Below, piece after piece: positions 8,771 through 62,390 of a DNA stretch of 64,000 nt. Origin of the DNA: Catajapyx aquilonaris (Eukaryota). Each line of letters opens with the position of its first letter. Within the stretch, counting starts at the first letter, position 1. A program made the position numbers and the translations under genes. The stretch is from assembly GCA_000934665.2 (NCBI GenBank), contig KZ538420.1:1-64000 (forward strand), given 5' to 3'. The notes under the pieces were generated by a model. That model was not told where the DNA came from, did no database searches, and saw only the letters and a list, made by a program, of their open reading frames with translations.

Positions 8771-11700
8771 NNNNNNNNNNNNNNNNNNNNNNNNNNNNNN
8801 NNNNNNNNNNNNNNNNNNNNNNNNNNNNNNNNNNGGGGCATCATCATAATTACCGACCTTAAAGGAGGTAAATTGTCTGAGAGCTTCCCTTTTAACCCAA
8901 CTGTCCACACTGATGAATTTGAAGCTGTTTTGAATGTGTTGAAATAATAGGCATAATATCAAGGGTATTGCTGGATGGCATATACTTGGAACCATCTACT
9001 ATTGATTGCCCTTCACTTATGCAAGAAACTTAAAATTTGACAACAGGCCTGTTTTAGATACATTGATTATGATACCAGTTGATCCAATCACTTATTAGGA
9101 GACCACAGCTGTCAAAACGTAATGTTTCTAAATATCGATAATGCAATGACTGCCTCAAGCAGAAACTGGATGACTGAAGGCAAAGAGAGGAGTGGGGATG
9201 AGTTAGGATTATAGGTGGGGAATGGGGGAGTTGGAACAGCTTTTTTTATCAGATGTGTCAAGTAATTTATAATACTGTACTTATTGCTTATTAAATACCC
9301 ATACATTTTCGATGCCAAAAGCCAATTGCATCAGGTTCCGGTAAATTTAAGATTTTTTTTTGTCACACCAAGGATATTTCCCAATATTGTGGAGCACCTA
9401 AGCGAAAGTACACACTACATTAAACCTAAGATTGAATTAAATCAATCACATCCATCATGGAAATGGAATAAAATCATTTGAGTCATCATTGAGAGACAGG
9501 GTACATGTTCATTTAAAAGAAAATGTAGCAGGACTAAAGGTATTTTCACAGCCAGAGGTAGTTTACTCTGTGGATAGTACCTCATTTGATGCATTCTGAA
9601 ATGATAATTTTACAGCAATGACAGATATTTCTCATTTTATGGAAAGTAACGATTTTGTGCATATAGATAGTATAGTGTCCTTTCACTCAAGTGCTTCACA
9701 AGTTTTCTTCACAAGTATTACTATTTTGCATGTTATGGGGTCCTCTGTATCTGTGTAACTTTGTCATATTTGGATTGTATAATAGAATTTCCTCTGCATT
9801 CTGTGTGTGTATTGATTATCAAGAAATACAGTGTACGAGAGTCTTGATAATCCAACCCAAATGGAACCGAGGCATGACCTTATTACTGAACGTTTTGGTT
9901 ATACAGAAAGAGGTAACAGAGAGCTGGGGGGCAATCAACAGCCCCTTAAATCATGATGCAGTGTAATGGCTGCTTAAACTCGGTTGTAGGGGCCTTATAG
10001 CAGCAGCCTTTTAACCTGTGCTAATTAAAAACCCAATAGCAGAGTACCCTATCTGTCTGAAGACATTTCCACATATTTCCTCGCTACAAATCTTAATTTT
10101 GTGCATACTCTAAGTTAGGGCTATTCAATTGGTGGACCGCGGTCCGGATCCAGACTGCGACGCAATTTTGTCCGGACTGCAACGATATACAGGACAGTTT
10201 GAAATAGCATTATAAATTACTAATTCGTGATTTTTTGAAAAAAGTGCTACCAATTTCATCAATCTCCCACGTTCACATAAGCTCGTGTGACCTTGAACCC
10301 CAACAAAAATTTCGTCTGCGCTGGGCTTGCTCCCCGCCCTTTATGGCTTGTTCACCTAGTGCTTATGAAATCTGGCCCCCTCTGAAATTTTTTCTGCCTG
10401 GGCGCCTGTACAGGACATCATAAAGGGTGAAGATGTCTTAATTATGTCCTGTCTTGATAGGCCCTTCTACCCTTGCTGCACATGTTTCTATTTTCAAAAA
10501 TGAACCTTGTGGAACAGGATAAAATCCATATCTTGCCTTGGGGGGGGGGGGTGAGGGGGGATGTCTGGACCTTCAATTTCCCAGGAAATGTAAATACTGC
10601 ACCTTCTGATGAACTTGTTGCATAGCCCTGCTCGAAGTATTAAATTGTTAATTAGTCTACAGGGAAACTAACACTGGCGGACAGAACTATTGACAAAATA
10701 TATTTTAATAAATGAAATGCCCTCTAACTGAACAATTAATTTTAAGTGCCTCATTTAGAATATGGGATACCTAAGTGCAGAGAAGTTGGTTGCAACAGAA
10801 GTAGTGGTAGTGGGAGGATTGTGAAACAATGCGCCATCAGTTTTACATTATCTGGCTATGTTGGCACAAAAAGGTATTTCGGATTACAAAAGGGTGGATT
10901 ATTGACACTTGACTGTAAGTCTGACATTAAACTCGTTGTTGAATAGTTGTTGTAAGCGAGTTGATGTGTGTGAATTATACTTGTGGCCTGATTTGCCTGA
11001 ACTTTTACTGCCAGAGATTTTACTTCGAATGCATGTGTGTGTGTGCTTGTTACATTTGGACAAAATATAAGCTATATTCTCTACTAGGAAGGAGTTAATG
11101 ACATTGGCAAATTGTGGTTATGTTGATGCCAATAAAATTTCATCTCTGTACGTTGCTGGCAAATGGTTGCTTTGTCGAATGGGACATGAATCAGCAGAAA
11201 TAATGTGTCGGTATAATTGTGGACTCACATGATAACATACAGTAACACAAACTGCCAACAGTCTTTGGCTCATTCCAAAGTTGTGATTGCCTAACAACAC
11301 TCCATTTGCTAAAAAATGAGGAGGGACAAATTGTTGAACCGTTATCTTGCTCTTTCTAAACTCAGAAGTCAGTAGCATTAATCATGGTTCTCAGGGAGGA
11401 TAAAAAGGGAAATATGTTTCTTCAGAGACCTAAATTTTCAAATACTACGGTATGTTTTTGGGGAATAAGAGTGACATGAAGTCTGACACCATCCTAGATC
11501 AGACAAACAATGTTAAATCATGTCATGGGAAAAGCATGTGTTTTATTTCCCCCCCTCAAGGCTGTTTATAAAATTTGTAAGGTCCATGTACAGTGTGTTC
11601 CAGCTGAAACTATTGTAGTGGTTAGTGATTTTTTTGTCACTGACTTTTGAACTAACTTTTGAATACCTACTTTTACTCATTCAAGATATTAGGCCAAATT

Positions 11701-12241
11701 GAATAGTCAACGATTTTAATTGCAATGCACCACCATCCCACTAATTGGTTTTATAATTTGAATTTTTGGGATGGATTTGAGGGACAGGGACATCCCACAA
11801 AGGCATATGATGCCATTTCTTCTGGGGAAATCAAGATACAGTTCTGAGGTCAGAGTCTAGTAACCCTGTTCTTGTTTTTCATTACGTATATGCATCCAAC
11901 TCATCCCTGGGTTCAACCCTGATTTGCTCTCAATCCAGAGTTACTAAACTCTGTGATTTCAGCAGTCATTATGTATACATGTCTCAGAAGGATTTCCATC
12001 CCGAAGTAGTTACATGAATACTGTGGATGCTCAAAATGTAATTTCTGAGTGCCTGAGGTCAGTAGTGAAATTGGCAGCTGGCAACAAAATGGTCCCAGCC
12101 ACAACCTATGAAATCATGCACCAGTGCCAAAAAGTAGTGGGGTTATGTAATGTTCCCTTGGAAAAAAATCCTGTAAAATTATAATTTTGATGAGTTGTGT
12201 TTAGGGGAAATATTAACAAAATCCTGCATTTTTTATGTATA

Positions 12242-12980
12242 CAGGGTGGCTGAAAAGTTCCACATAAATGGGGAAGTCTGCAGTTTGCTTTGTAATTATG
12301 TTTTGTCTTTATGCAGGTGAACCCTGTTGACCACTGACGAGCGTGTGGAACTCACTCTTCTCTGTGAATGGGAAGGCTACACCCAGAGATGTTGCAGTGA
12401 AATTTAATTGAATGCACCTGGAGAAAGAGCCCATAGAGCAAAGCAATTGGGAGCAGATTGAGCCAAAAATTCTGGACCACAGGGTGTGTAGCAGATGTAC
12501 CCTGATCAGGACGGCCCAACACATCAGCCAAGGTGGAGGAAACGGTCCTGGCAAGGGTGTGTGTGAGCCTGAAGACTATGAGGGTGAAATTTGTGCTTCT
12601 TTACGATGCGCTTAATGGTTGTCCACAGAAGGCCCTGTTCCAAGCTTGTTCAGCGTATGGATTTCTTTGAGCTCATGCACATTTTCCCAGGATCATTTCC
12701 TCCACCTCGGCTGATGTGCTGGGCATATCTGCTACACTCCCTGTGGTCCGGAATTTTTGGAGTGAGCTGCTCCAAGTGTTATGTGCTGTGGGCTCTTTCT
12801 CTGGTTACCTTAGATTAAATTCTGCTGCAATGTCTGTGGGTGTAGCCTTTGCGTCCACAGAGGAGAGTGAGTTCCACATGCTCGTCAGTTGCCAACATGG
12901 TTCACCTTTTGAAAGACAAAACACCATTACAAAGCAAATCACAGACTCCCTCATTAATGCAGGACTTTTCAGCCACCCTG
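12242..12980. mobile_element. Palindromic non-autonomous Tc1/mariner element made of two degenerate transposase 5' ends
   Basis: TA flanks at 12240-12241 and 12981-12982. Termini are CAGGGTGGCTGAAAAGT...ACTTTTCAGCCACCCTG. Each arm reads inward as a transposase N-terminus: MLATDEHVELTLLC...KFRTTGSVAD on the right arm, ...SGRP on the left arm. Confidence 0.85.
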
Positions 12981-13641
12981 TATTCCGAAACCTGTGAAGT
13001 AGTGTAGATCTTGCAACTCACAATAAGTGAATAAAATTGCCATCACAGTAGAGTCTCAATTATCCTGACATCCTACTGATATTTACTGAGTTGTGGTGTG
13101 CATGTCTGGATGCTGCTTATTACTCCCATCACTGCCTTAGGTAATTTACCTGTGAGTGATTCATGAGTAATAAGCTTGATTGTACACTGCCCTTCCAATT
13201 CCCATAACGTTAGATTGTTTTCACTCCTGCTCCCTCTTCTTCCCTATTATCAGGACTTTGGATTACCTTAATGCCTTTCAATCCTTCTTAGTCCAAATAA
13301 TTGAGACTGTGCTGCATTATATATCAAAATTCAAGCAAGTGTGTGCCATATTTTTCATTTATGATACCCTCTGCCTCAGAACTTGAATCTGAAACAGTCG
13401 TCTCTAGTAGATACAAAACATTATAATTATTATAATAATTAGGCAAATTCACTCTGGGTTTGATAGAAAATGTATGACTTTGAAGCAGCCTGATCAGGAT
13501 GGAACAATGTGGTTTATTCCCTGCCATATATGTTTTTCTTGCTGGGTGTTTGCGTGTCTTTGCAGCTCAGTAGCTGATAACAATCTTAGTGTTTAACATG
13601 TGCACATACAAATGCTGTCTTACTGAACACGCTGTAATTAA

Positions 13642-14481
13642 CCCTTTGTCTCCTGTGGCCATTTTGGTTGCATTGTAATGCAACCAAACAAAATATTTTT
13701 TTAAATTCATTGGTATAACCCCAATGGAAATTTCTTTCACCATAGAAACTAGAAGAGTTACCTATGGCTATGTTCATGAGTATTTATGCCACTTGCGTGA
13801 TATTTTTAATGGCACGTCATAGGCCAAAGGTCTCATTCATTGTAAACAAACATTTACTGCATGAATTTAAATACGCATAGCTCCCTACCACATATTTCCC
13901 GGTAAGTGGACGTGCAGCTGAAAACCATTGAAAAATTCTCGAAATTCTGCAACTTACTTTTTTCCGGAGGGAAAATCTGAACGATTTATCAAGGGTAGGC
14001 AAACTCGCCATTTCGGTCGTAAAAAGTGTCCTGGCTCCTAATTGGCCGGGCTGTCTGCTCCGAGCTCTAGGTGGTGCCCACTTGCCACCTGAGCCACCTT
14101 TTCTGGTGGCTCACATTACCTCTGTTTAAACTAGACATTTAAAACAATTTTAACATACACTTAATGTTTTCCTAATTGTTTTATCAGAGGGAGTGAGCAA
14201 TCATGTAGAATTATCTTGGATTATTATGAGGGATGGAAGCCACCTAAAAATAATGGCGTAGATGTCGCAATACGATGATGGCACCTTTTCGTGCATAGCA
14301 TAGGAGGCGGTACATGGCTCGCTCAAGATGCAACTCGGGTTTGTATGTCTCGGAGGCTTCAGCCCCATCTTGTGCATGAATTGAGAGCGAAACCAATGGT
14401 GCCAGATCCAGTGATTTTCACCTAGGGCGCTATTTGTAAACCCCCACCCAAAGAATGTATAATCCAGCGGGAGACGAAGGG
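13642..14481. mobile_element. Non-autonomous piggyBac-like element
   Basis: TTAA TSDs at 13638-13641 and 14482-14485. TIRs are CCCTTTGTCTCC / GGAGACGAAGGG. Confidence 0.75.
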
Positions 14482-15498
14482 TTAAGTCAAATTTTCTGGC
14501 ATATTAGTCAGTCATGTGCTTGTTTTGACAGGTTGGTTTTCTTTCTTTTTGATACTGATATCATGACCTCAGTTTCCTGGTTGCATTGGTTTTGGTGGAT
14601 GCTGAACACAACTTTCTTTTTAATAGAATGTTCACTGTTAGACCGGGCCCAAGCTAGGCAATCTCCAACCATTCTGTCCCAAGAAAAGTTGCAAATCACC
14701 TGCACGCTGCAGCCATACATCACAGTGCTTATTTCAAGCATTGCTTGAAACTTGTTGCTGCAACTTTTCAACCCTACGTTGCATTGCATAGTTTGTGCCC
14801 ATCTTACATTTTTGACTTCCATAATTTTTGAACTAAAATTTCAACACATAAAGCTCTGTGCATTGGATTTATTCCTAACCATTTTATATGATGACATATT
14901 ATAGCTCACGTATTTGTGGTTACTAAGCCTTCTAGGCCTTCATGGTTAAATTGGTAACAGCTATGATGTACTTCCCATACCGTTCACATGTGATGGCGTT
15001 ACATGTCATTAATACTGTTAAGTGGTTTTTGAACATTCAGTGCTCTACTAATTAATCCTGTTGTGTATTGTTTCGTTCTTAGTACCGATGAACATACACA
15101 ACTTAATACGATCAAGGGTGATGTGGTGAAGCACTTTGGGGACATAATGTAGGATGAGTAGGCCCTTCACCTCAAGAATTGATAGGCAGATTTGCTCAAA
15201 CTTGGAGTATAGAAGTTGTAAGTTAGAACCTAAACGCTAACGCATTCTTTGCTTAGCAGGAATGGGCTTCCTTCAGACACTTCACCACTAGCCCAGGTAA
15301 CAGTAGGCACGGATGTTCCTTAACACCTTTGTCATGCCTTGTATTGCTATCTCATTGAGTAGCAGTACGGGTGAGTTTGATGTGATGTTAATCTGTGATG
15401 TCAGTGTAACTTATACTGTTAGGTACAATATATGGTTTTCTTTTACATGACATTGTTATTATTGCCACAAGAATTGACCCAATATATGTAGACCGTAT

Positions 15499-15743
15499 GA
15501 AATCCTCACGGGAAGAACGATCCAGGTCCACTTTTTGTCAAAAATTAGTTACATATCTCGGAAGATAGTTTCACTGGTGTAGAATATGGTTTGGTCTTGG
15601 TTGTCGAGTAATGATCACAGTCCACTACAGAAGGCCCCGAAAGTGGGATTTACAGTAGGACATTATGGGCCTTCGAAATTTGAAATTGAAATATCTCAGT
15701 TTCACATGAGGTGGACCTTGATCATTCTTTCCCCAAGGTCTTC
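15499..15743. mobile_element. ~245-bp MITE, same family as 61722-61971
   Basis: TIR of the type GAAGACCTxGGGGAAGAATGATCAAGGTCCA. The interior is collinear with the 61722-61971 copy. Confidence 0.75.
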
Positions 15744-15744
15744 A

Positions 15745-15981
15745 TAGTGTTTTTCCAAGTAGTGGGGTCCTTTTAGTTATCGGAACTTTCACCCACTTTG
15801 TGTAGCTTTTTGAGCCCCAACCAAGGTGCCCAATTATTTCCAGGAGTGGTTGAATATAGCAGCTGGTGATATAATAGGAATGGTTGGGAACATCAATTGT
15901 GTTGGGAAAAAGGTATACAAAAATTATGTCTTGGGGCAAAAGGTTTGATCACTAAAAGGACCCCACTATTGGGAACAAATA
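15745..15981. mobile_element. Short TIR element (MITE) abutting the previous one
   Basis: TAGTGGGGTCCTTTTAGT near 15760 pairs with ACTAAAAGGACCCCACTA near 15951-15968, with imperfect extension on both sides. Confidence 0.6.
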
Positions 15982-16313
15982 TGCACTTGGATAATTTCCT
16001 TATAGACTTATTGTAGCAGTAATAGTGGCATTGTTTGCTGGAGGAGTATTTGTGTGCCAGTACTCACTAGATGCTGCATGTAGGTAGGCCCATAGTTCTG
16101 CCATCCCAAGGAGAAGCAACCTGTCGCCAAAACTAGTAAGGGTGAAGGTTCCGTGCATGCCCTGCACAATTTCCCCCTGGGTGTTTCTCCTTGGGACGGC
16201 AGAGTTGTACCAATACCAACCCTACTGTTTTAAAAACCACCAATGTGGTACATTTCATAAGTGTAGTGTGTTATGACAGTCAAGAAGTTATGCCATTTTG
16301 CCGCCATTCGATG

Positions 16314-16636
16314 CAGGGGGTGCTCCATATCCGCGTGAGATTGGTTCCAGAACCTTCCTCAGACACCAAATTCCGTGGATGCTCAAGTAAATGGCAGAGT
16401 ATATGCATACAGCCTACACACATCCTATATATTTGAAATCATCTCTAGATCACTTATCTAATACAATGTAAATAGTTGTTATACTGTATTGTAGTGCTCA
16501 GAACTTGGCAAATTCAAGTTTTGCTTTTTGAAAATTCGTGTTTTTTTTGTTGGTGGTGGTTTTTAAAAAATATATTCGATCCTTGCTTGGTTGAATCTGG
16601 GGATACGATACCCACTATTCCGGTACCAAATAGCTG
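16314..16636 (+). mobile_element. Tigger/pogo-type MITE resembling mammalian MER2/MER2B
   Basis: Collinear blocks ATTGGTTCCAG, GGATGCTCAAGT, AAATCATCTCTAGAT, CTAATACAATGTAAATAGTTGTTATACTGTATTG, GGCAAATTCAAGTTTTGCTTTTTG and TTCGATCC..TTGGTTGAATC match the MER2/MER2B consensus as I recall it. TIRs are decayed. Confidence 0.75.
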
Positions 16637-17376
16637 AGCCATGTCCAAAAATTCAAACCAGCAGTTAGTGCCTGCAATTTTACTTGCATTGTGATGCTGG
16701 ATATCAAGCAATAACGACTAATTCAGACCACAGTCAGCAATCATTTGGGTAGTAATTTGACTTGGGGTGTACCCTCAGCAATATGAAACTGAATGGGCTT
16801 TATATTACTGTGCAAGATTCTTGAAATAGGCACACTTCAAAATATTATGAAATTGAAACATCTGCAGTTGATGTGGCATGCAGGTTGAATGAGAACCATT
16901 TCAATACTTTATGAACTGGACTATGCCTTAAATGTGCCTTATGATAATACGGCTGACACAAAGAGGCAACTATAAGAAGTGGATCCTTTATTTTAAACTG
17001 TATATGTTAGATACCAAACAACTTGATTGTAGTGGTAGGTCATCTATAGTGCCTGTGAAGCTGAAATATGTCGCAGGAAATTATTATTGTTTTCGTACAA
17101 ATGGGATATTCTCCTGTGGAGAATCCATCTCTGCAACATGTGCAATTCATGCAGACAGGAAGATAAGTACTATTACACTGGGCATTGGCAGATAAAATAT
17201 GGGGGGCTTTATGTTTGCGTAACGGTGTCGCAAGAACCATGTGAATTGTATTTTACGTATATGAATGTTACGAATGCCTTCTTGACATTTTCTGCATGAA
17301 CGGTGTCATGTTTTTCATGTTTATGACTATAAGTAAAATATATGGCACCTGCATAGAAATGGTAGATAATGTAGAC

Positions 17377-17603
17377 CCATGGTTCCCCACCTGGGTGCAG
17401 GGCATGAGAGGGTTTCAGGTGGTGGAGAGGCCATGAGAAATAAATTTAAAAATTTAACATTCTTACTCCTTTAGTGTATAATTTACTATAACATGATTTA
17501 TTCTGAACAACAGCAAGTAATTAGGTTGGAATAACATTATCATTTATTACTTTATTTGAATGGGGAGTGGGGTTGGTTAAAGTGAAGGGGTTGGGAACCA
17601 CTG
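17377..17603. mobile_element. hAT (Charlie-like) MITE
   Basis: Perfect 8-bp TSD ATGTAGAC at 17369-17376 and 17604-17611. TIRs are CCATGGTTCCCCACC / GGTTGGGAACCACTG. Confidence 0.85.
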
Positions 17604-19536
17604 ATGTAGACTTATCATATATCGTAAATGATGCTGATATATCTCCACTTTTGCCATGCAAATTGTTGTTACTGCTGCTTGTCTATATATATAATTCTCC
17701 TAAAGTGTACTTATTAGAGTAGCTCACTAATAGCAATAAATCAAATGACAATGATAATTATTGGATAGTGCCCAGTGCCAATTTAGGGCAGCCTGGTAGC
17801 CTTCATTCCATTGACTTTTCCCACTCAACCATATTGGGACATCTGACACATCATTTTTATTAGCCTTTTCCAGCGCACGTTTTTCGACCTTTTCGTATAA
17901 TACGTGGATGTCATAAGTAAGAGAAGATGACTGGAAGGGGAGGGGCAAGTGCAATGACTCAAACAGCCAGTTTAGTTCTCCCTGTTGTTAGTTGCCATAA
18001 TTTCCTCCCAAGATGAAGCTGGAGAGGCCTCATCTCCTTACAAATGAGTAAAGGGACAAACCTGGAACTGAATGGGATCTTTCTATTCCTGAACATGAGC
18101 TTCTCATATACCACTCATTCTCAGATAATTACCAGAAGCCAATAGTGGGGTCCAAGAAAATGTGCCTTTGTAAATGATGAAGATCATATGTAGTACTGTA
18201 CAGCCACTGCATTTGCTTTTTTCCTGCAATATCACTAATTTATGGATAGTAATTTTTCCAGAATGGATGTGGTCCAGGATCATTTTTGCCAGAAACATCC
18301 ACAATTTTTAGTGGAGTTGTTTTTAATGTAATAAGAAAAAGTGAAACTCAGTTTTGTGCCATTTATTCTAGTATTGTGAAAATCTGCATTTGAAATTTGG
18401 ACACTTTAACAATTTTTAAATTGATGCAGGAGGAGCCAAGAACCTGAAATAAATTTTATTTTAGTACTTACAACAATGATAGGTGGTGACTGATTTTTAG
18501 ACGTGTCGATTGTTCACTAAAACTGTAATTTAAGAAATTATTGTCCCAAAATAATTGCTCCCCATTTTTATTACCCCATTTGAAGGGGTGCAACCTCTTT
18601 AACAGTAATTTATTTCATGAAATAGCTAGTGTTAGTAAACAACATTTTACTTGAAAATTGGGCGTTATCCAAAATTGCTAGAAAAAAATAAAAATAAAAA
18701 TAAAAATATATTCCGAGCAGTGGTGTATGAATTAGCATACGTGTACTCTTCATGTTGCATCACCCAGTGCATAGAATATGCTACATCGGGCAGTGATTGG
18801 TAGTACTGAAATGCATTGCCATAATTCACATACGATGTGTTATTACAAAGATGATTTTGATATGATTCCATATGTGCAAGATAACCTGACTCCAGAATTG
18901 TCTTGAATTTTTCTTATTGGTGACTGAATATGAATGACGTGCAACTCATCTGACAACTCAGGCATGGAACTTAACCCGATTAGTAGTAACAGTTTCCTTT
19001 GATGGTATGTGATGTGAGTGGTGTAACCATGTGATGTATATTGCATGTGTGGTGCATTATTGCTATCCCCCTAAGTCATATCCTGTACCGATTAGTTTCC
19101 ACTGCAGTCCTACGACTGTTCTTCCAGCTTTTCTCTTCCCTTTACCACTCGTGGCAGTGATTCATCAAGTGTACAGTAGTTCATTGTGTTGGTGTGTGGG
19201 TGATGCAGCATATGCTGGACAGGATAGGGGCTTGTTACATGAACCTTTGGTCAACAGATTAAGAATTTTAGACAGCAGTATTTCGGAGCAAACATAAAGA
19301 GAGCTTTGATGAGAATCAATTGTTGATTGTCCTATCCTTGCTAGCATTGCTGCTGCTGCTGCTGTGTGGTAATATTTCTTCCTCTGTTGACTGGAGGTTT
19401 GCAGGGCACTGGATCGGTTTGCTGGTGTAGTTGAATGAGGAAATGTCAATTGTGGGATGATTGTTTTCGTGTTCAGCGTATTTAGCTGTGACGAAACCCA
19501 GTGGCCTGATGTGACAAGCCTCTGTCTTCTCCACAG

Positions 19537-19669
19537 TTTTCACCCCGTCGCTGGAGAGATGGATTACACTGATCTGATCAGTAGTGTAGAACTGGCCATG
19601 GATGAAGTACCTACTGACTTTGGCAGCATCAACGTTTTAGACCTGATTCAGACCTACAAAACCGAATAA
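19537..19669 (+). CDS. Probable last coding exon of an unidentified gene (FHPVAGEMDYTDLISSVELAMDEVPTDFGSINVLDLIQTYKTE*)
   Basis: Strong acceptor TCTGTCTTCTCCACAG| ending at 19536, protein-like codon usage and a TAA stop. It is followed by ~4.4 kb of UTR-like sequence ending near AATAAA at 24073. Upstream exons were not found in the window. Confidence 0.55.
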
Positions 19670-21754
19670 ACTTCTGCTCGAGTGGATCGATGTCTTCGAG
19701 GATGAGAACATAAGGTACTGTATGGATGGCGTGATAGTTGGGGAGCAACAGGACCAGTGTACGTCTGGCTGACTGAGTGACTGCTGTGCACATGTGACCA
19801 TTAGTTGTGGTGTAGGCCTTGGTTGTAGGTGTCTCCCCATCCAGTACTATACTCAGTGTCTTGTAGGTTTCTTGGTACCTTTTTGTCAGTTTGGCAGGGG
19901 TTCTTGTGAGTGTGTGTGTACAGTGACTTCTTAATTGGAAGATTGCCTGCTGTGCTCCAACATGAATTATGGTTAATTAATGAACATGTGCTCTTTGTGT
20001 GCCCAGACTCAAATGATGTGCGAGTTACGCAGACTCCAGATGATGTGGCCCATATGAGCAGGGCAATCTAATCTACAGACGACGTGTGTCAAAATAAGAG
20101 GCAACGCTCTCCTGAAGAACCTTTGCTGCTACCGGTGGCATGCCTCTTAGAGATAACCTACCTGTTAATAGGTACTTGACGAGGGAAAGCAACATTGAAA
20201 CATTGTACAATACATGTACAGCACCCTTGATGTGTTTCCCGATCTTGTTCAGCAAAAAAATGTGCAATTATTTTAGATCGTGCTGATGTGCCATACTTTC
20301 GAGTTCAAATTATGAGTCGAGAGTGACGAGGGATGATTGATGATTGAATTTATTCGCACCATACTTATCACTAAAAAGAGGCCACCTTTGGCGACCAGTC
20401 AAAACAAAATTTGACAAGAAAGTTGCTCTCGTCACTTGCATGACTCGTCTAGAATAGGCCTCTAGCAAATAATTGATTCTGTGTATCTAACTTGTGTCAA
20501 GTGTTGGCTTTTCACAAATGCCTTTTCACACCATCACAAATGTGTTATCAGAATTACCTAGAAGGTATTGTTTGATGCTAGTGGAATAATCACTGGTATG
20601 TGAATTGATCAAAAGTAGATCAAATTGTTATAGTGGGATGGAATTTAGTCCCCAGAGCCAAAGGAACCTACAGGTGCTTTAGTGAAGTGGAAATGTAGGA
20701 TGTGTGTGACATTTAAATTGTCATACACAGTTCAAGCACAGCCTACTTGAAAACACCAATAAACTCGCAATTTTCTGACAGCATTTTTGGAATCAGCATA
20801 ATAGTGACCTAATTTGTGTGTGATTGTCAAAAACACCTTTCTTGAATGATGCTTCCATGGAGGATTCTGTTGATTGGTGCACAAGCAACCCCACATAGGC
20901 ACGTGCTACCTCACCAAGGCACCCAGGTCCCCTTGATATGTTTTCTTCTTTTTTCTTATATACTTTATTTTGGAACATTTTGTGCTAGATCTTGTTAACT
21001 TTTAATAGCTACATACAGTGTAGCTTTTGTTGTTTGGAAGAAGGAAATATTATGGGTATAGTAAAAAAGAGTAAGTGGAATTCTTGCTGCAAATGTTCAC
21101 TGCAAAAATTATGGGCCCGGTTTTTCATCACACCATTATGCTGCTTTTAGTAGGCTTCTTCTATTAGATTCCTTGATGTAGAAGCCCACTAATAGCCAAC
21201 TAAGAGTGAGACCAGAAACAGGCCCTGTATTGTCGGATCAATTGACCACTGTATTTCTGTGTTGCTGCTGTTTCCAAAAGCTTACCAAAACCTTTTTTTC
21301 CTCCTTATACTTAGACATGCTTGCTGGTTACAAGTATAACACTGGCTCTGAACACCTAGTTAGGCTCTCTGTTCATCTTCCATCACTACATCATCCATCT
21401 CTGTCCTGTCTTAAGAGAATTTCTGTGATAGTTCATGAGAACGTCCCACTGTGTAACTTACTGATGAACATTACTGCTCTGCTAGTCCGCTTCCCCAGTC
21501 CATCAGACTATTTTCCTTGTATACCACATGTTAATTTTCAGGTGCAGTTTTTGTTAGCAAATTTTCCAACTTAACTGCTTTATTTAGCAGTTACAAAAAT
21601 ATTAGCTACTAATAATAGGGGGAGGCATATTTTTAAAAAGCACTGTGGCATTGTCTAACCTGCAGTTAATTGCATCAACTGTTAAATGGTTAAAGTGGAT
21701 CAAGTCTTAAGTGTGGAAATTCATTTCAATTCAAGCTTGGATGAATGCTTATAC

Positions 21755-22052
21755 CAGTGGTTTCCAACCCGGGGGGTGGGGGGGGTGGGGGGGGGGGNNN
21801 NNNNNNNNNNNNNNNNNNNNNNNNNAGAGAGAGAGAGAGAGAGAGAGGTCACAGGCAGGGTCGCGAGCCTTGGTTCAACATTTTTTTTTTGCAATTTCTG
21901 TGTCAATTGAACCATTTTTGCAGCCGTACAGAGTATATGTTTAAGGGGGCAGTTGTAGGGGGGCCGGGGGAGGGGGGGAAGGTGGGGGGGCTTTGCACAT
22001 TTATGGTAACAAGTTTAGGGGGTCACAGTTGGTAAAAGGTTGGAAACCACTG
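21755..22052. mobile_element. hAT-like MITE with internal G-tracts and (GA)n
   Basis: TIRs are CAGTGGTTTCCAACC / GGTTGGAAACCACTG. The 8-bp flanks GCTTATAC / GTTTATTA match only partially. Confidence 0.8.
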
Positions 22053-26453: not shown

Positions 26454-29400
26454 TCACTCCTCTTTGACTGCGAGGAATATAGCTTGGGTTGCCCGTGAAA
26501 TTGAGGCTGAAAAGAGATGAAGAGATGACAAAATATTTTCTCGGGGATAAAATATTAGTGCAAACTCACCAATGGTGTTCTGATAGAGCTCTGGCTTCTT
26601 TTCCCACCAAACAAACAAGAAATACGCAGGGATTCCTGTTGCAGTAATTAAGATGCCCATCCCCACCTCCACGGGTCGAACATACAAGGGCAGAAATACG
26701 AGGAATGCGCAGATGAAGAAGAATGATATTGGCACAATGATGTTCACCTGCAACAACACTGAATCAGTGAACATCTTTGATTTGTGACACACGTCATCAA
26801 TCAACAGGTCTACCTTGATTGGTCTGTCCATGTCCGGCCTCTGATATCTCATCCAAAGAAGTCCCGCAATTGAACAAAGAATAAACATGGATTCGACAAA
26901 GCTGGAGTAGTCTATGAGTGAGTAAATGTCACTGGTGCTCAGCATTATCAGCGACAAGGTAGCCTGTAGAAATAAAGACATTTTTTGTAGGCACAATGGT
27001 TGATGGCTTATAATCAAACAGGAAGTAATCATGATAAAACCTGACAAAATATTGCTCATTGTCAAAGTAGTTCATTTGAATAAATTTAGATGCATTTATG
27101 CACACATGGGCGCAAGTGGAACAGGCTACTGTAACCTATACCATCTAATGATATGAATGCATACACAAAGGGTACAATAAAATTAAATAACCATAATGTC
27201 CAGCTCGCCTGGCCTGTCTCCCATGCGTAATAATATTTTCGCTTCAGCTCCACTTACACATACACTTAAGATAAGGCCAAGATATTTTACAAATAATAAC
27301 AGTTATACATTCATTCCCGACACAAAGTACATGTTGGAAACAATTTTCCTCTTCTAGAAGTCTCTAAATTAATTTCCAAAAATATCGCCGTAAAAACGTG
27401 CATTTCACGTACTACTGGCGAACTGTTAGGCTGATTTAATTATGAAATGTGTTAAAATATCCGGAATATCCACCCTGAGATACTATCGGGTTCAAATACT
27501 TTTGGCCACTTTATCCTGGTCTTGCACAGACCCCACGTTAAGGAGGTGTGTGTGTGTTAAGGGTGGCTTCAAGCTGAGGATAAAGTGGCCAAAAGTATTT
27601 GAACCCGATAGTACCTACATGACCAACTTGATCCAATCGTCGTACTTCACGAGAATTTTTGGAAGTTTTCAGAAGGGATAGGCAAGCCGCAGATAAGAAT
27701 TTATTTAATTCTCGCAAAGTGTTACAGTTGCAGCAAGTTGGTCTTGTAGGTGTCTCAGGGTGGATATTACAGATTTTTAACGTGTTTCAGAATTAAATCA
27801 GCCTAACAGTTCCCCGGCAGTACTTGAAATTCGCGTTTTTTCAGGGCGATCTTTTTGGAAATTAATTTAGGGGGGAGAACTAGATGATTAAAATTGTTTC
27901 TAACACATATATTGTGTAGACTGTAGAGCATGAACGTGTAAGTGTAGATATGTTATTATTGGTGAAATTTCTTGTCCTTATCTTCAGAGTACATGTGTTA
28001 GTTGCACAGAAGCAAATAAATAAATAAATAAATAAATAAAATTTATTATAATAATAATAATAATAAACGGGAGCTAGGCCCTGCGAGCTGGACAGCATTA
28101 ACATGTACAAAATCCAGGTTGAATTTTTAAGTACATCACCCAAGCAGTGGCTGAAAACGTTCCTTCACTATCACCCCTTAAAAACTTGAGCGGTAATATT
28201 TAATTTTATGTGTAAGTAATAGACAGTATTTGCTGCATAAAGTATGATCACAATCCAGTAAACTAGTACTTGTCTTAATGAAGGTGGCCATTTTTGTGTA
28301 ACCCATTTGCCTGGGAATAAAATAAAAATATCTTGTCAATAATCATAATTAAACTACAATGTAGAAAGCAATTTTCTGTTGGCAACCTCAAGATGAGGCT
28401 GTTTCATAGGCACTATCACTGAGCTATTGGTAGCATGGCAATCAGGGGAACAGACAAGAATCCAGCATGTTCCCTTTAATCATAAATGCAATATCTTGGC
28501 ACGTAAGAGAAGTGACTGTTCCTTGTTCCTACTGGGAGTCGAACCCAGGACCCACAGTTCTGAGAATGTGTGCTCTGCCACTGAGCTACAGGAATGAAGG
28601 CATCAACAATTCTCACTCTTTACTCTGTTAGTATCGCAAAACTAGCATGCAGTTAAAGTTTATGACAATTCACAGTGGTCTAATCTTATAGTACCATACT
28701 CATTGCATTCATAAATATCCAAGTACCATATGGAATGGCATTAACATTAATGCCATTTTGCAGATCTCTGGAAAGAAAACTGGCAGTGACAATGCAGTGT
28801 GCTGTTTATGTGCTTCAGCTATTTGAACCCTTTTTCTGGACAGTTGTGGTACACCTACCCTTTGGGGTAATAGTTTACTTACTGATACCATTTTTGATAA
28901 GTTATCATAGTAGTTGCCACATAGGACAGTTACTGCAACTGTCCAGGCTAGGGCCCCTAATTGACACGAATTAAGGAATGTGTCGTAGCATTACCAGGAA
29001 CACCAAGGCTGGGACAGGAGTGAGTCTCTTCACACTGATGTATGACAGCATGTCTGGGAATTGTCCTTGTCTGGCACCAACAAAGCACAGCCTGCAAGCC
29101 AGGATGAAACAGGTCAAGTTAGTGATCCTCCAGTTGCTGATGTCACACTCGCACCATCAATGGCACGACAGTAAATTAGTAAGGTCAGTGTTAAACCAAT
29201 GAGTGATGACGATGGATGTTGGTAGCATAATACATTAATAATTCCCGAAATTTGGGCGCATCATGCAATGCAATCTTTAGGGGCCATCCAATATAACACT
29301 TGTCGCTGGTGGCGATTATTTTCGTGACATTACGTAACGCTGGCCTAAACCACATTCCCCTTCGATCCCAGAGCTACCGGTTCGCATTTTTCCTATACAC

Positions 29401-32400
29401 TCAATTCGGGACAAAAACCAATGTGCTAATTGTTCCGGTTGTATTTTAATGTGTGTCCCCAAAGCCAAATCCACGTTGTTTACTATATTGAGCTGCATTT
29501 TATTATTCAACAAAATGTACCTCTGTGGTAGTCACCAGAGTTATGATTCAGTTAGGAACTTTAATTCGAACGTGCCAATTTACAAAAGAAGTTGTAAGTT
29601 ACTGTCTCTAGAGCATAAATTCAAATCAGTGATCCTGACAGTGTACTTGCAGAATGCTGCACATTAGAAGTGTACGTAGAGAATCAAATTTACTGTATGA
29701 AATGTTGCACTACTTGAATATTGTACAGGAACATACTGATTTCCTGCCAAAAGTTTTTACTTGGCCCTACGTACCAGACAGGCTATGATAGATGGCTGTG
29801 ATATAAAGTGGGATAGTGATGTAAATGTATTTCAATTTGGTGTGTTGTCCATAAATATGAGTGAAGGTAAAGCACAAAATGCGTGGATAGACCACCCAGG
29901 TCTGAATTAAAATCAGAAGTACCTCTGTTGCGTTAGATGTAACATTATTTGGAGTGACTACAGTACATGTGAAGGTTTACATGACATTTTAAAATCATCA
30001 GCTCTGCTATTGCAATTTTCTGTTTACCTGGGACTATGCTGTTCATGGCCTGGCTAGTTTTGTTTTTTAAAAATTTTCTCTGACTTCAACATTTGTGGAC
30101 TTCACGTTTTTTATATATATATATATATATTAAATCATAGACTGTCACTTACTGTGCCTGTCTTGGACACACCACATTTGTCGCCCTCTGTAACGAACAA
30201 CTTTCATTAGGCCTACATCACTGCATTCTTACAGGCATAAGTTATTTCGTATAGTTTGGCAACGTTCACTAAGGTGACTTTAGTAAGAATGTGTAGGCTA
30301 CACTTTTCGTATATTGATATCACTAGTCAATTTAGTATTGCACTGATTATTACATACCACATGAGGATCCGCATGTTCATAATTAGACATGACTCGTGTA
30401 AACATTTTTTTGCGGTGTATACGAACAGAGGGAGACGCAATTCACGAAAACAACAGAACGAAGAGGTTCTCCTGGAAATTATGCAACCGGAGGAAACTGC
30501 GACTTGTCGTGCAGGTTGCTCTGAACAGTTAGGATAATCTGGAAGAATTGTATTGCCTTGAAGCATGGCACAGTACAGTACACTCTAATTGTAGCTAGCC
30601 CCTCGGAAGCGACAGTTTCGAGAAATGTGACGCGAAGAATACAAGTTCAGGTTGCGACCGGCGTTACGCATCATAGGCCCAGCAGACATCCATTCCAAAA
30701 TAAATAAACGCAATTAACGTCCTACATACCTTGACGACGTCATAATGTGAACACAAAGGCCTCCCAGTGCAGACATCGCTACAAAAAGTGGCATCACCCA
30801 CGACATGACTCCGAGAATTCTTCCTCCGAATGTCTGCAACACAATAAATTACTATCAGCCTGACAAAAATCCAGCAATTACGACTAATGTCCCGATACTG
30901 ACCACAGCAATGGCGTCCGATGAGAGTAATTCATTAGGTGTTAGTACAGCCAGATATGCAATGTTGGCTAGCACATAGATGGTAGTCACTAGTGGTAGAG
31001 AAATGTAAATAGCTCGAGGCAGATTTCTGTAAAAATATATATATATATATATATATATAAAATCAAATGTTATCACTAGAAATTCACACACTCTTAGTTA
31101 CTGTCAATACTTACACATAAGGATTTTGGAGCTCTTCTGTCATAAAGTTGAGATAATTCCTGAGAAAATAGACGACAAAATTGAGTCAATCGTCACTTTT
31201 CGATAAAATCATTTTTCTCTGATTTTCAGTCAATGACTCAACATGTAAATTCACACAATCGACTCTTTCACTGATTGCAAGTTTCATTCCGATTGCAGTG
31301 AGTGGTAATGTCATAAAATTGATGCATTTTTGTGTGACCTTGGTAGACGTCAACTTACCAGCCAGCGTAAGAAAATATTCCTGAATAGAACGATACTGCA
31401 ATTTTCCCAGGCTCTGTTGCAGAACCCTCAAAAGCATTATGGAAATTCATATAGTTTCCTACGGGGAAATAAGCCACAAGTTAGAGTATAGTCACATACT
31501 ATCAGTACGCACACTTACCAGAGAACATGTAGCTAAGACCCGCAATTATGATAATTATGAGAGCACCTAATTTTGCAAACATGAAGCTGTCTTGCAATTT
31601 AGTCGTGTACTTCACATTGTAACAATTCAAGAACGTCAAAAAGCCTGTGAAAAAATCAACTGTTAGTGCATCCCATTCCCAGGTCTAAAACCAGCCTCTC
31701 CTTACATATGGCAGATCCTGCTAACAACCTGACTGCAGCATCAGGCACTTGGCAGCCTGGGAAAAATGGTTGTATCACATAGTTTGCGAATGTCAACGAC
31801 ATTATCGCGTTTGTAGTTGGCCTGGAAATAAAATAGTTTAAAATTAGAAAAAAATTCATGCATTGTGAAAATTTACATTTTAGAGTATTGGAATAACCAA
31901 GTACACTTGTGATAGTTCTGCGCAATAGCCTACGTGGGTAACTAGGGAGAAGGTGCGGGAAAAAAAATAGCAATGTGGCCTCCTACTCTTGACCCAGTTG
32001 TTGCCATTTGAGGTCATATTAACAAAAAATAAGGTTTTTGTTCCGATCTTTTCGGCACTTTATCGAAAAGTTCGGGCTGAATCATACACAACGTTGATTT
32101 ATTTTATGAGTAACGATCCTGATGAAAAATGTCGTGTCTGCATTGAAGACCTCCAAAAACTACGATTTATTGTTCGCGTGATGAGCTGTTAAGTCCCTGA
32201 ACAATGAAATCGATATCGACGCCTAAGGATTATATTGTCGTATGTCCACGTTTTAACAATGGACATACGACAATATAATCCTTAGGCGTCGATTATGATA
32301 ACACTGGACAACTCACGAATTATTTGGACACCACGGGTCCAAAACCAACCAGGCCATTTGTATTGTTTTTTTTTACATAAAAAAGAGCCTGACAAACTCC

Positions 32401-33940
32401 ATTGCTGCAATATTGAATTTATTTGTGCAATTACCAGTCAGTGCACATTATTTTATTAGCCCTATTAGCCCGATTAGCCCTGTTTCTGTGTGTTGGTTAA
32501 TTTCTTCACGAATCCAATATTATTGACACTAGTCCCGGATTCAAGGGCGACTGAAACTGTCCTTTCAGTAGTTCAAAGGGCAAGATGTTGTAACATTTTC
32601 TATACTAAAATGTAAATACAGAGGGTTCAATGTAAATAACTCGAAGAAATGTCACCTTGACTGAGATTGGGGAAAGGCGAGGAGACGAGTCCATTTACCT
32701 CGGTTTACAGTATTATTGCCGCGACGAGCAATCCTACACAAAATAAAAACCAAATCAAACTTAATTAGAATGTCTGTGAATTTGCTCTGGCTAAACGCCA
32801 GATGCTTGAGGAATAATTTGCTCTCAATATTCCCGTCATTTTTGTGCCACACAATCATGTTGCCACACATGTGCCACACAGTTGTCAGAAAACTGTCTCG
32901 ACAGCCCAGGTGCACTCAGTGTTATTATCCGTAAGACATGCCTCGAATTAATTTAATATAGTGGTACTTACACAAATATGAGATTGGCATCCCATAAGAA
33001 CAGGAATGCCGGCAATGGTCCAAACGCTTCCTTGATATAAGCGTAATCTCCGCCAGATTTTGGTATGGCCGTACCTAGTTCGGCGTAACAAAGTGCTCCG
33101 ACTGTCGATAAAAGTCCACAAAGTATCCACACAACCAGTGACAGTCCTACGGATCCTGCTTCTTTTATTACTCCTTTTGGTGTTACGAAAATTCCTGCAT
33201 GAAAAATATGACAGACATATTAGAATCTCCCCAATATGGTATTACCGTACATTCTGGATGAAACTTTTAATTGTTGTTGTGATATAGCTATACTACAGAC
33301 ACATAATGTGCAATACGGATGTTTCCAATCATATAGAGTTAAAAATAAAGTACGTGTCACTCATACACTTGATCTCAGCATCACAAGCAGACTAAATATT
33401 GTCACGGTCACAGGAAGTGATAATGACCGATGTACAGTAGGCTACCACTAAATACACACATCTTAATCTTTGATTTCGAAAATTCTCGATTGCATTGCAC
33501 CCTAGCTGGGTTGTTGACAATCAGGAAAATTTTGCAATATTATGCAGATAGTCGCCAATTTCATTTTGCGGCATAGTTCGTCACTTTCGAATGTCTAGTG
33601 AAGCAATATTATAATTTATAGTATGAACGACACCTGTCACTATTCTTTCCAAAAACATGTTTTGCTGCCCCGAGTCCGCCCACAACCCGAACTGTCCGAC
33701 AAATAAATTCACGCGACATTAGGTCCAAGTCAACACCCTGAACAAACACCAACAATGACGAAACCAAACCAGCACAAAAATAACTTTACATCAAGCACTT
33801 TCCTTACCCGATCCAATAATCGTTCCAATAATAATAGCCACCCCTTCCATCAATCCCAGCTCTTTCTTGAGCTGCACCAATTTGTTGCCCTCATCCTTGC
33901 ATGGATTCATCGGCTCCAACTCCTGCGATTGTTGCGGCAT
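26454..33940 (-). CDS. SLC7 L-type amino acid transporter light chain (LAT/xCT group, genderblind-like), 482 aa
   Basis: 12 GT-AG exons with consistent phases: 33808-33940, 32972-33194, 31706-31821, 31519-31644, 31359-31458, 31115-31159, 30903-31026, 30730-30833, 28995-29091, 26814-26963, 26570-26747, 26454-26506 (1449 nt). Motifs [30 protein letters not shown] (heavy-chain disulfide Cys), [27 protein letters not shown]. The genderblind assignment rests on remembered motifs (LWDA..IFVPTTNAIM). Confidence 0.95.
27197..28097. mobile_element. Fold-back palindromic MITE related to 4983-5766, inside an SLC7 intron
   Basis: Termini TGTCCAGCTCGC / GCGAGCTGGACA, with TTAA at 28098-28101. Shares TCTAGAAGTC.CTAAATTAATT and AACTGTTAGGCTGATTTAATTATGAAATG with the 4983 element. 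Contains an (AAAT)n/(AAT)n expansion. Confidence 0.75.
27483..27611. mobile_element. 129-bp Tc1/mariner-type MITE nested in the larger palindrome
   Basis: Perfect 35-bp TIR CTATCGGGTTCAAATACTTTTGGCCACTTTATCCT with TA on both sides. Confidence 0.85.
28519..28592 (-). mobile_element. Degenerate tRNA-derived SINE head
   Basis: Minus strand reads CCTGTAGCTCAGTGGCAGAGCAC...CCTGGGTTCGACTCCCAG, with A and B boxes. Confidence 0.55.
32215..32293. repeat. Perfect 34-bp stem hairpin (mini-MITE-like) in an SLC7 intron
   Basis: ATCGACGCCTAAGGATTATATTGTCGTATGTCCA, an 11-nt loop, then the exact reverse complement. Confidence 0.85.

Positions 33941-53508: not shown

Positions 53509-62390
<8,882 letters not shown>

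What the first reader, a model, noticed from the sequence alone, without database searches (positions are those of the whole stretch)
16314..16636. Mammalian MER2-like Tigger MITE embedded in an arthropod genome: horizontal-transfer candidate
Seen: a ~320-bp non-coding element whose blocks run in the same order as the MER2/MER2B consensus as I remember it, including CTAATACAATGTAAATAGTTGTTATACTGTATTG and AAATCATCTCTAGAT. Known: MER2 is a eutherian TcMar-Tigger MITE, and other mammalian DNA transposons (SPIN, OC1) have been shared horizontally with insects. Inference: interior, non-TIR nucleotide similarity this strong is unlikely to survive vertical descent from the bilaterian ancestor, so transfer of the parent element is likely. 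The copy looks decayed and sits in native CpG-poor DNA, which argues against simple contamination.
Basis: partly seen in the sequence, partly recalled or inferred. Interest (0 to 1): 0.75.

Follow-up and report, generated by a model that had tools for sequence, protein, structure and literature searches.

The report
Decayed MER2-type transposon relic in arthropod
A single worn-out copy, about 310 bases long, of a small cut-and-paste transposon related to a family abundant in mammals sits in native DNA of an arthropod genome; this fits the known habit of such elements to move between distant animals, but one copy cannot prove a transfer.

Summary
Window 16314-~16623 is non-coding and collinear with a TA-flanked ~345-bp transposon copy in a human lncRNA probe printed in PMC6578592. 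That this copy is "MER2" rests on my recall.

By-eye alignment gives 51/75 ungapped matches at the 5' end, a near-identical ~39-nt core, and 33/50 at the 3' end. The best chance values inside the window are 35/75 and 27/50. Four exact shared blocks occur once each in 64 kb, in the same order.

The host is an arthropod. The 13-kb contig holding the element shares a ~250-bp MITE with the contig carrying an arthropod SEC14-like gene, so the flanks look native. The copy is decayed: no detectable TIR pair, only a TG/TA remnant of a target duplication, no second copy and no transposase in the window.

Horizontal transfer is the most reasonable explanation for ~70% non-coding identity across phyla, but it was not tested. 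Tigger elements and Eutheria-arthropod Tigger transfer are already published (PMC9219625). Verdict: a new member of a known kind, of modest interest.

The parts
16314..16623 (+). Whole non-autonomous element, about 310 bp. The 5' end is firm and the 3' end is uncertain (16604 to 16623).
   Evidence: Collinear by eye with the human copy printed in PMC6578592. Single copy in the window. No Pfam family on the overlapping ORF 16146-16433.
16314..16388 (+). 5' terminal and subterminal block, starting with CAG.
   Evidence: 51/75 ungapped identity to the human copy from the same CAG terminus (by eye). The window-internal chance maximum is 35/75. It contains exact shared blocks at 16339 (15 nt) and 16376 (12 nt), each unique in the window.
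16389..16457 (+). 5' internal region, with an exact 10-nt shared block at 16438.
   Evidence: By eye, 44 matches over window 16389-16447 with three small gaps relative to the human copy, then 4/10 over 16448-16457. The block is unique in the window.
16458..16496 (+).
   Evidence: By eye, 35 of 39 window bases are identical to the human copy, with five gaps. The human copy carries an extra 11 nt here.
16497..16554 (+). Middle stretch with T- and A-runs; homology not traceable by eye.
   Evidence: Length is similar to the corresponding stretch of the human copy, but I could find no convincing alignment.
16555..16604 (+). 3' subterminal block.
   Evidence: 33/50 ungapped identity to the human copy (by eye). 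The chance maximum is 27/50. The exact 11-nt shared block at 16587 is unique in the window.
16605..16623 (+). Presumed remnant of the 3' terminal inverted repeat; heavily decayed or partly deleted.
   Evidence: No significant inverted match to the 5' end: score 14, and 158 of 300 shuffles score as high or higher. Both the window copy and the human copy end in CGG followed by TA (by eye).
16312..16313 (.). Candidate 5' half of a TA target-site duplication; now reads TG.
   Evidence: Read directly from the sequence.
16624..16625 (.). Candidate 3' half of a TA target-site duplication; reads TA.
   Evidence: Read directly from the sequence. It depends on the uncertain 3' end.

Best explanation
The segment is a genuine, old, dead copy of a miniature non-autonomous cut-and-paste transposon of the pogo/Tigger group. 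It is of the same sequence family, or a sister family, as the mammalian element known as MER2.

Inferred mechanism, from established knowledge of Tc1/mariner/pogo elements: a Tigger-type transposase encoded elsewhere bound the terminal inverted repeats, excised the short element and inserted it at a TA dinucleotide in this arthropod's genome. Since then the copy has mutated freely. It has lost its 3' inverted repeat and most of its target duplication, and it now does nothing.

Non-coding DNA cannot stay about 70% alike by vertical descent since arthropods and mammals split. The resemblance therefore implies that the parent transposon lineage spread horizontally among animals at some time. That spread need not have been directly between a mammal and this arthropod, and its direction is unknown.
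For: Shown:
- Collinear similarity to a real human copy over about 233 of about 310 nt, from the same CAG terminus. By eye: 51/75 at the 5' end, 35 of 39 in the core and 33/50 at the 3' end. Chance maxima are 35/75 and 27/50.
- Four exact shared blocks, each unique in the window and in the same order.
- No coding capacity: 0 of 129 ORFs of 75 aa or more in the window match a transposase family.
- Arthropod host.
- The element's contig shares a ~250-bp TIR-bearing MITE with the contig carrying an arthropod gene: 78.8% over 255 nt, E 1e-53.
- Tetranucleotide profiles of the four contigs correlate at 0.94-0.97, and flank CpG o/e is 0.31-0.39.
- Homology begins exactly at a transposon terminus, and the flank next to it does not resemble the human copy's flank (by eye). 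This is what an insertion gives and what a stray contaminant fragment would not.
- Four runs each hold 93-97% of the sampled 31-mers of 15300-17700. They come from one sample, which may be the source of this DNA.

From the literature:
- MER2 and MER2B are listed as human Mariner/Tc1-class DNA transposons (PMC5753468, named section read).
- Tigger elements occur in 155 arthropod species, and Eutheria-arthropod transfers are claimed (PMC9219625, results section read).
- Arthropod and cnidarian Tiggers have TIRs of a similar type, CAGTC...TTATCCGCGG (its Table S1).
Against: - The reference is one diverged human copy aligned by eye, not a family consensus or profile.
- The label MER2 is recalled.
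- There is only one copy in 64 kb, and the genome could not be searched, so family status in this host is unknown.
- The copy has no detectable TIR pair, and the target duplication is only TG/TA.
- The 13-kb contig holding it lies between scaffold gaps and carries no recognised arthropod exon.
- Its CpG o/e of 0.35 is the lowest of the four contigs.
- About 30% divergence from a human copy is, by my recall, also roughly what two old mammalian copies show to each other. The divergence alone therefore does not separate a native copy from mammalian DNA.
- Motif scans found no relatives in three public collections: 0 loci in each of 6 scans.
Confidence: 0.65

Rival explanations
1. Mammalian DNA in the assembly. 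The element, or the whole 13-kb contig between the scaffold gaps, comes from a mammal (laboratory, host or prey DNA) and was joined to arthropod sequence by assembly or scaffolding.
For: - Contig 8835-21797 is bounded by N runs.
- It has no recognised arthropod exon.
- It has the lowest CpG o/e of the four contigs, 0.35.
- The element's distance from a human copy is in the range I recall for mammalian copies among themselves.
Against: - A ~250-bp MITE 570 bp upstream of the element has a second copy inside the contig with the arthropod SEC14-like gene.
- The tetranucleotide profile of the contig correlates at 0.94-0.97 with the others.
- No SRP/Alu-type or other SINE-type match was found in the contig at Rfam gathering thresholds. 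No reverse-transcriptase ORF was found.
- Similarity to the human copy starts exactly at the transposon end, and the flanks differ (by eye).
- Each of four runs holds 93-97% of the 31-mers of a 2.4-kb stretch across both junctions, though all four are from one sample.
Confidence: 0.12
2. The family is native to arthropods and the resemblance to mammals reflects only shared terminal transposase-binding sites. That is, a generic Tigger-type MITE with no specific link to MER2.
For: - Tigger TIRs of a similar type occur in a leafhopper, a termite and a sea anemone (PMC9219625 Table S1).
- Tigger is widespread in arthropods.
- About 58 nt in the middle of the element could not be aligned to the human copy.
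Against: - The best-conserved part is interior: 35 of 39 bases at 16458-16496, about 145 nt from the end.
- Exact blocks at 16376 and 16438 also lie outside any 20-30-nt TIR.
- Order and spacing of blocks follow the human copy along about 290 nt.
Confidence: 0.13
3. Vertical retention of an ancient functional (exapted) non-coding element, conserved since the bilaterian ancestor.
For: Highly conserved domains inside some mobile elements have been reported across metazoans. I saw only the search listing and abstracts of PMC6887750 and PMC5804259.
Against: - The similarity covers a whole transposon from its CAG terminus, at about 70% with indels. It is not one sharply conserved island.
- Nothing in the surroundings suggests a regulatory role, and the nearest recognised exon is about 10 kb away.
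- No such conserved domain is known to me for MER2 (recall).
Confidence: 0.03
4. Chance or low-complexity resemblance.
For: The region is AT-rich and contains T- and A-runs.
Against: - 51/75 and 33/50 observed, against chance maxima of 35/75 and 27/50 in about 128,000 comparisons.
- The four exact blocks are expected 0.0001 to 0.2 times each in the window, yet all occur within about 260 nt in the right order.
Confidence: 0.01

Closest known systems
MER2 / MER2B, human non-autonomous Mariner/Tc1-class (TcMar-Tigger) DNA transposons of Repbase
   Same: - Similar size (about 310 against about 345 bp).
- Same CAG terminus.
- Same order of sequence blocks along the element.
- About 72% identity over the alignable 233 nt to one human copy (by eye).
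- Non-coding, with a TA-type insertion-site remnant.
   Different: - Found in an arthropod.
- About 13 nt shorter in the 5' half, and lacks an 11-nt stretch in the core.
- The middle ~58 nt is not alignable.
- The 3' inverted repeat is lost.
- Copy number in the host is unknown.
- The consensus itself was never compared, because no Dfam or Repbase was at hand. That the human copy is MER2 is recalled.
Arthropod Tigger elements (Diaby et al. 2022, PMC9219625), for example those of Homalodisca vitripennis and Cryptotermes secundus
   Same: - Arthropod hosts.
- TA target sites.
- TIRs of the type CAGTC...(T)TATCCGCGG resemble the window's 5' end (Table S1; by eye, 14 of 24 positions to the Homalodisca TIR).
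   Different: - Those are 2.5-2.7-kb autonomous elements known from their transposases.
- Only their 18-24-nt TIR motifs could be compared.
- Their internal non-coding parts were not available. The motif search of that paper's supplement found 0 occurrences.
Cross-phylum transfers of DNA transposons between tetrapods and insects (SPIN, OC1 and others involving Rhodnius prolixus)
   Same: The same kind of inference: a non-coding transposon sequence far too similar between phyla for vertical descent.
   Different: - Those cases rest on many copies, consensus sequences above 95% identity and patchy distributions (recalled, not read here).
- Here there is one copy at about 70% identity to one human copy, and no distribution data.

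Membership tests
MER2/MER2B (Repbase/Dfam family) | Significant nucleotide match to the family consensus or profile over most of its length | not testable with these tools
   No Dfam or Repbase was available, and recalled sequence may not be used. As a proxy I aligned one printed human copy by eye: 51/75, 35 of 39 and 33/50. The family name of that copy is recalled.
MER2/MER2B (Repbase/Dfam family) | Terminal inverted repeats beginning CAG | tested here: inconclusive
   The 5' terminus is kept (CAG at 16314; 51/75 to the human copy). Within the window copy no TIR pair is detectable: score 14 against a shuffle mean of 13.7, with 158 of 300 shuffles as high or higher. The repeat finder found none either.
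MER2/MER2B (Repbase/Dfam family) | TA target-site duplication | tested here: inconclusive
   TG before 16314 and TA after 16623. The 3' end is uncertain.
MER2/MER2B (Repbase/Dfam family) | Non-coding, shorter than the autonomous element | tested here: met
   About 310 bp. The overlapping ORF 16146-16433 has no Pfam family.
MITE family resident in this genome | Many dispersed copies with shared ends | not testable with these tools
   No genome is held. There is one copy in the 64-kb window. There were 0 loci in each of 6 collection scans.
pogo/Tigger group | Autonomous partner encoding a CENP-B-type DNA-binding domain and a DDE_1 transposase | not testable with these tools
   None among 129 ORFs of 75 aa or more in the window. 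The rest of the genome is not available.
Horizontal transposon transfer | Element divergence far below neutral divergence of the hosts | tested here: inconclusive
   About 70% identity in non-coding DNA between an arthropod copy and a human copy (by eye). This exceeds anything expected after vertical descent between phyla (established knowledge). No host synonymous divergence or consensus-to-consensus distance was computed.
Horizontal transposon transfer | Patchy taxonomic distribution and phylogenetic incongruence | not tested
   No eukaryote genome collection was at hand.
Horizontal transposon transfer | Contamination excluded by reads or PCR across both junctions | not testable with these tools
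There is indirect support only: a shared native MITE, and 31-mer shares of 0.93-0.97 in four runs of one sample.

The most novel reading that the evidence does not exclude
The arthropod copy descends from the same internal-deletion derivative as mammalian MER2, not from an independent deletion of a related Tigger. In that case the miniature element itself, together with its autonomous partner, crossed between an arthropod lineage and early placental mammals. Arthropods of this group would then be a candidate donor or vector for the Cretaceous Tigger/MER2 invasion of mammalian genomes.
Probability: 0.2. Interest if true: 0.6.

Novelty: new member of a known kind. Interest (0 to 1): 0.35.

Why it matters
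If confirmed genome-wide, this would place a close relative of one of the classic mammalian DNA-transposon fossils in an arthropod. That would give a concrete lineage in which to look for the still-unknown source of the Tigger/MER2 wave that entered early placental mammals.

It would also add a non-autonomous element to the mostly transposase-based catalogue of Tigger transfers.

As it stands it is one decayed copy, and cross-phylum spread of Tc1/mariner/pogo elements, Tigger included, is already an accepted phenomenon. The finding extends a known pattern rather than changing it.

Tried and rejected
- **Whole genome:** none is held.
- **Earlier notes of this scan:** nothing on this genome or sequence. 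Word searches gave only unrelated or generic pogo-MITE notes.
- **Motif-pair scans:** 0 loci in viral, metagenome and prokaryote-genome collections. I ran 6 scans using two patterns. These collections are poor in animal DNA, so this says little.
- **Motif searches in supplements** of PMC9219625, PMC7386202 and PMC7325037: 0 occurrences.
- **Old papers** that may print the MER2 or Tigger consensus (PMC330213; PMC39958, an id I recalled): not held.
- **Rfam on 16200-16750:** one chance-level match, E = 2.
- **iGluR-like ORF** used for taxon placement: no homologue at E <= 0.001.
- **Protein atlas on an SLC7 exon:** Chordata and Arthropoda clusters tied at 0.96, so it was uninformative.
- **Not attempted:** BLAST of the element against the phage, plasmid and E. 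coli collections, because these cannot hold the family. I also made no computed alignment to the printed human copy, because sequence from a paper may not be typed into a tool. All identities to it are hand counts.

Full report
**What is there.** Window 16314-16636 was read directly.
- It has no tandem repeats.
- It has no Rfam match above chance (one hit at E = 2).
- The only ORF over it (16146-16433) matches no Pfam family.
- A BLASTN of 16251-16700 against the whole window found only itself. All other hits were 27 nt or shorter with E of 0.08 or more. It is therefore a single copy in 64 kb.

**Is it really like the mammalian element?** No Dfam or Repbase is at hand, and recalled sequence may not be used, so I looked for a real reference.
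- Full-text searches with short motifs from the element found one paper holding several of them. PMC6578592 prints in its Table S2 a FISH probe for a human lncRNA (I saw that passage only).
- That probe contains a TA-flanked element of about 345 bp with CAG...CGG ends. The paper does not name it.
- Sequence from a paper may not be typed into a tool, so I aligned it to the window by eye and counted by hand.

The hand counts are:
| Window region | Result |
|---|---|
| 16314-16388 | 51 of 75 ungapped, starting at the same CAG |
| First 134 nt | about 95 matches, with three small gaps (the window copy is about 13 nt shorter) |
| 16458-16496 | 35 of 39 window bases identical, with five gaps (the human copy has 11 extra nt) |
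| 16555-16604 | 33 of 50 ungapped |
| 16497-16554 | about 58 nt that I could not align |

Overall this is about 167 matches over the 233 alignable window bases.

**Controls.**
- Sliding the same two window blocks over the whole window on both strands (about 128,000 ungapped comparisons each) gave maxima of 35/75 and 27/50.
- Four exact blocks shared with the human copy (15, 12, 10 and 11 nt) occur once each in the window, at 16339, 16376, 16438 and 16587. From base composition they are expected 0.0001 to 0.2 times each.
- The blocks follow the order seen in the human copy. The first spacing is identical at 37 nt. The later spacings are 62 against 75 nt and 149 against 157 nt.
- Leaving out the two exact 5' blocks that anchored the search, 24 of the remaining 48 positions still match, against about a quarter expected.
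- The resemblance is therefore real and reaches far inside the termini.

**State of the copy.**
- The first 100 nt and the reverse complement of the last 120 nt give a local alignment score of 14, no better than shuffles (mean 13.7; 158 of 300 as high or higher).
- The repeat finder reports no terminal pair.
- The bases before 16314 are TG.
- If the element ends at 16623, where the window and human copies both read CGG, the next two bases are TA.
- The copy is thus a decayed relic with a firm 5' end and an uncertain 3' end.

**Whose genome?** No whole genome is held. Two conserved exons place the window in an arthropod.
- An SLC7 amino-acid transporter exon (32971-33219, minus strand) has its best-identity named hits in arthropods, mostly crustaceans and insects, at up to 87%.
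- A SEC14-like/"real-time" exon (59479-59784) has arthropod hits at up to 95% over 40% of the query.
- A single-exon iGluR-like ORF (45957-47450) fits weakly but has no homologue at E <= 0.001.
- Window CpG o/e is 0.54. I did not try to go below phylum.

**Is the element in native DNA?** The window is a scaffold with N runs at 8771-8834, 21798-21825 and 44887-44902. The element lies on a 13-kb contig (8835-21797) with no recognised exon, so contamination had to be considered.

Evidence against contamination:
- A 255-nt repeat at 15496-15744, 570 bp upstream of the element, matches 61719-61972 at 78.8% identity (E 1e-53). The alignment shows inverted ends of about 29 nt, so it is a resident MITE.
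- The second copy of that MITE lies on the gap-free contig that carries the arthropod SEC14-like exons.
- Tetranucleotide profiles of the four contigs correlate at 0.94-0.97.
- The contig has no SRP/Alu-type match and no reverse-transcriptase ORF.
- Similarity to the human copy begins exactly at the transposon end, and the adjoining flanks are unlike each other. An insertion produces this. A stray fragment would not.
- Four sequencing runs each hold 93-97% of the sampled 31-mers of 15300-17700. They are from one sample, which may be the source of the assembly.

Evidence for contamination:
- The contig's CpG o/e of 0.35 is the lowest in the window.
- By recall, about 30% divergence is also what two old mammalian copies show to each other.

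I put contamination at about 0.12.

**What it is and how it worked.** The best reading is a dead, non-autonomous pogo/Tigger-type transposon.
- It was moved in trans by a Tigger-type transposase that recognises the terminal inverted repeats and inserts at TA. This is established knowledge of the group, inferred here and not shown.
- No transposase is in the window: 0 of 129 ORFs of 75 aa or more.
- It has no evident present function.

**Comparison with what is known.**
- MER2 and MER2B are listed among human Mariner/Tc1-class DNA transposons (PMC5753468, DNA-transposon section read).
- MER2 and several Tiggers are dated near the divergence of mammalian orders (PMC1914374, passages seen).
- Tigger elements are far from mammal-specific. 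Diaby et al. (PMC9219625; results section, supplementary tree and Table S1 read in part) report them in 155 arthropod species and claim transfers between Eutheria and arthropods. Their supplementary tree lists an arthropod group directly after the block of mammalian tigA1-labelled rows.
- Their Table S1 lists arthropod and cnidarian Tiggers whose TIRs (CAGTC...TTATCCGCGG) resemble the window's 5' end. This comparison is at TIR level only and by eye.
- Dupeyron et al. (PMC7325037, passages seen) stress that Tiggers are polyphyletic and patchily distributed.

An arthropod relative of a mammalian Tigger-derived element is thus consistent with published patterns. What is new is the specific, interior, nucleotide-level link of a miniature element to the MER2 type.

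**On horizontal transfer.** Vertical descent cannot keep non-coding DNA about 70% alike between phyla. If the copy is native, horizontal spread of the parent lineage at some time is the reasonable inference.
- Its direction, date and directness are unknown.
- None of the standard tests was possible here. These are many copies and a consensus, distance against host synonymous divergence, a patchy distribution, and read-verified junctions.

**Verdict.** The segment is a real, decayed MER2-type miniature transposon in apparently native arthropod DNA (confidence about 0.65). Transfer is plausible but untested. This is a new member of a known kind, with interest 0.35.

The boldest reading not excluded is that the same deletion derivative as MER2 moved between arthropods and early placentals, which would point to a donor or vector lineage. 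I give that reading a probability of about 0.2.

Noticed in passing
window 15496-15744 and 61719-61972: Two copies of a resident MITE of about 250 bp, 78.8% identical over 255 nt, with inverted ends of about 29 nt. One copy lies 570 bp upstream of the element. The other lies within the SEC14-like gene region.
   Followed up: partly
window 12239-12983: A stretch of about 745 bp that matches its own reverse complement at 72% (E 1e-115). It is a long palindrome or foldback-type repeat of unknown family.
   Followed up: no
window 45957-47450 (-): A 498-codon open frame without introns, with weak ligand-gated ion channel matches (Lig_chan-Glu_bd, Lig_chan, both below Pfam cut-offs). It has no homologue at E <= 0.001 in the 5.8-billion-protein search. 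It is possibly a divergent ionotropic-receptor-type chemoreceptor gene.
   Followed up: partly
window 8835-21797 versus 21826-44886: CpG o/e differs strongly between contigs of the scaffold: 0.35-0.40 in the two gene-poor contigs, against 0.70 and 0.53 in the two gene-bearing ones.
   Followed up: no
window 28524-28595 (-): A tRNA-like sequence (Rfam tRNA, 43.8 bits) lying within the span of the SLC7 transporter gene's exons. It may be a tRNA gene or a tRNA-derived SINE head.
   Followed up: no
window 26457-33219 (-), 41199-41780 (-), 58917-61577 (+): Host genes in the window: an SLC7-type amino-acid transporter with several exons, a claudin/PMP22-like terminal exon, and a SEC14-like/real-time gene with CRAL-TRIO exons.
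   Followed up: partly
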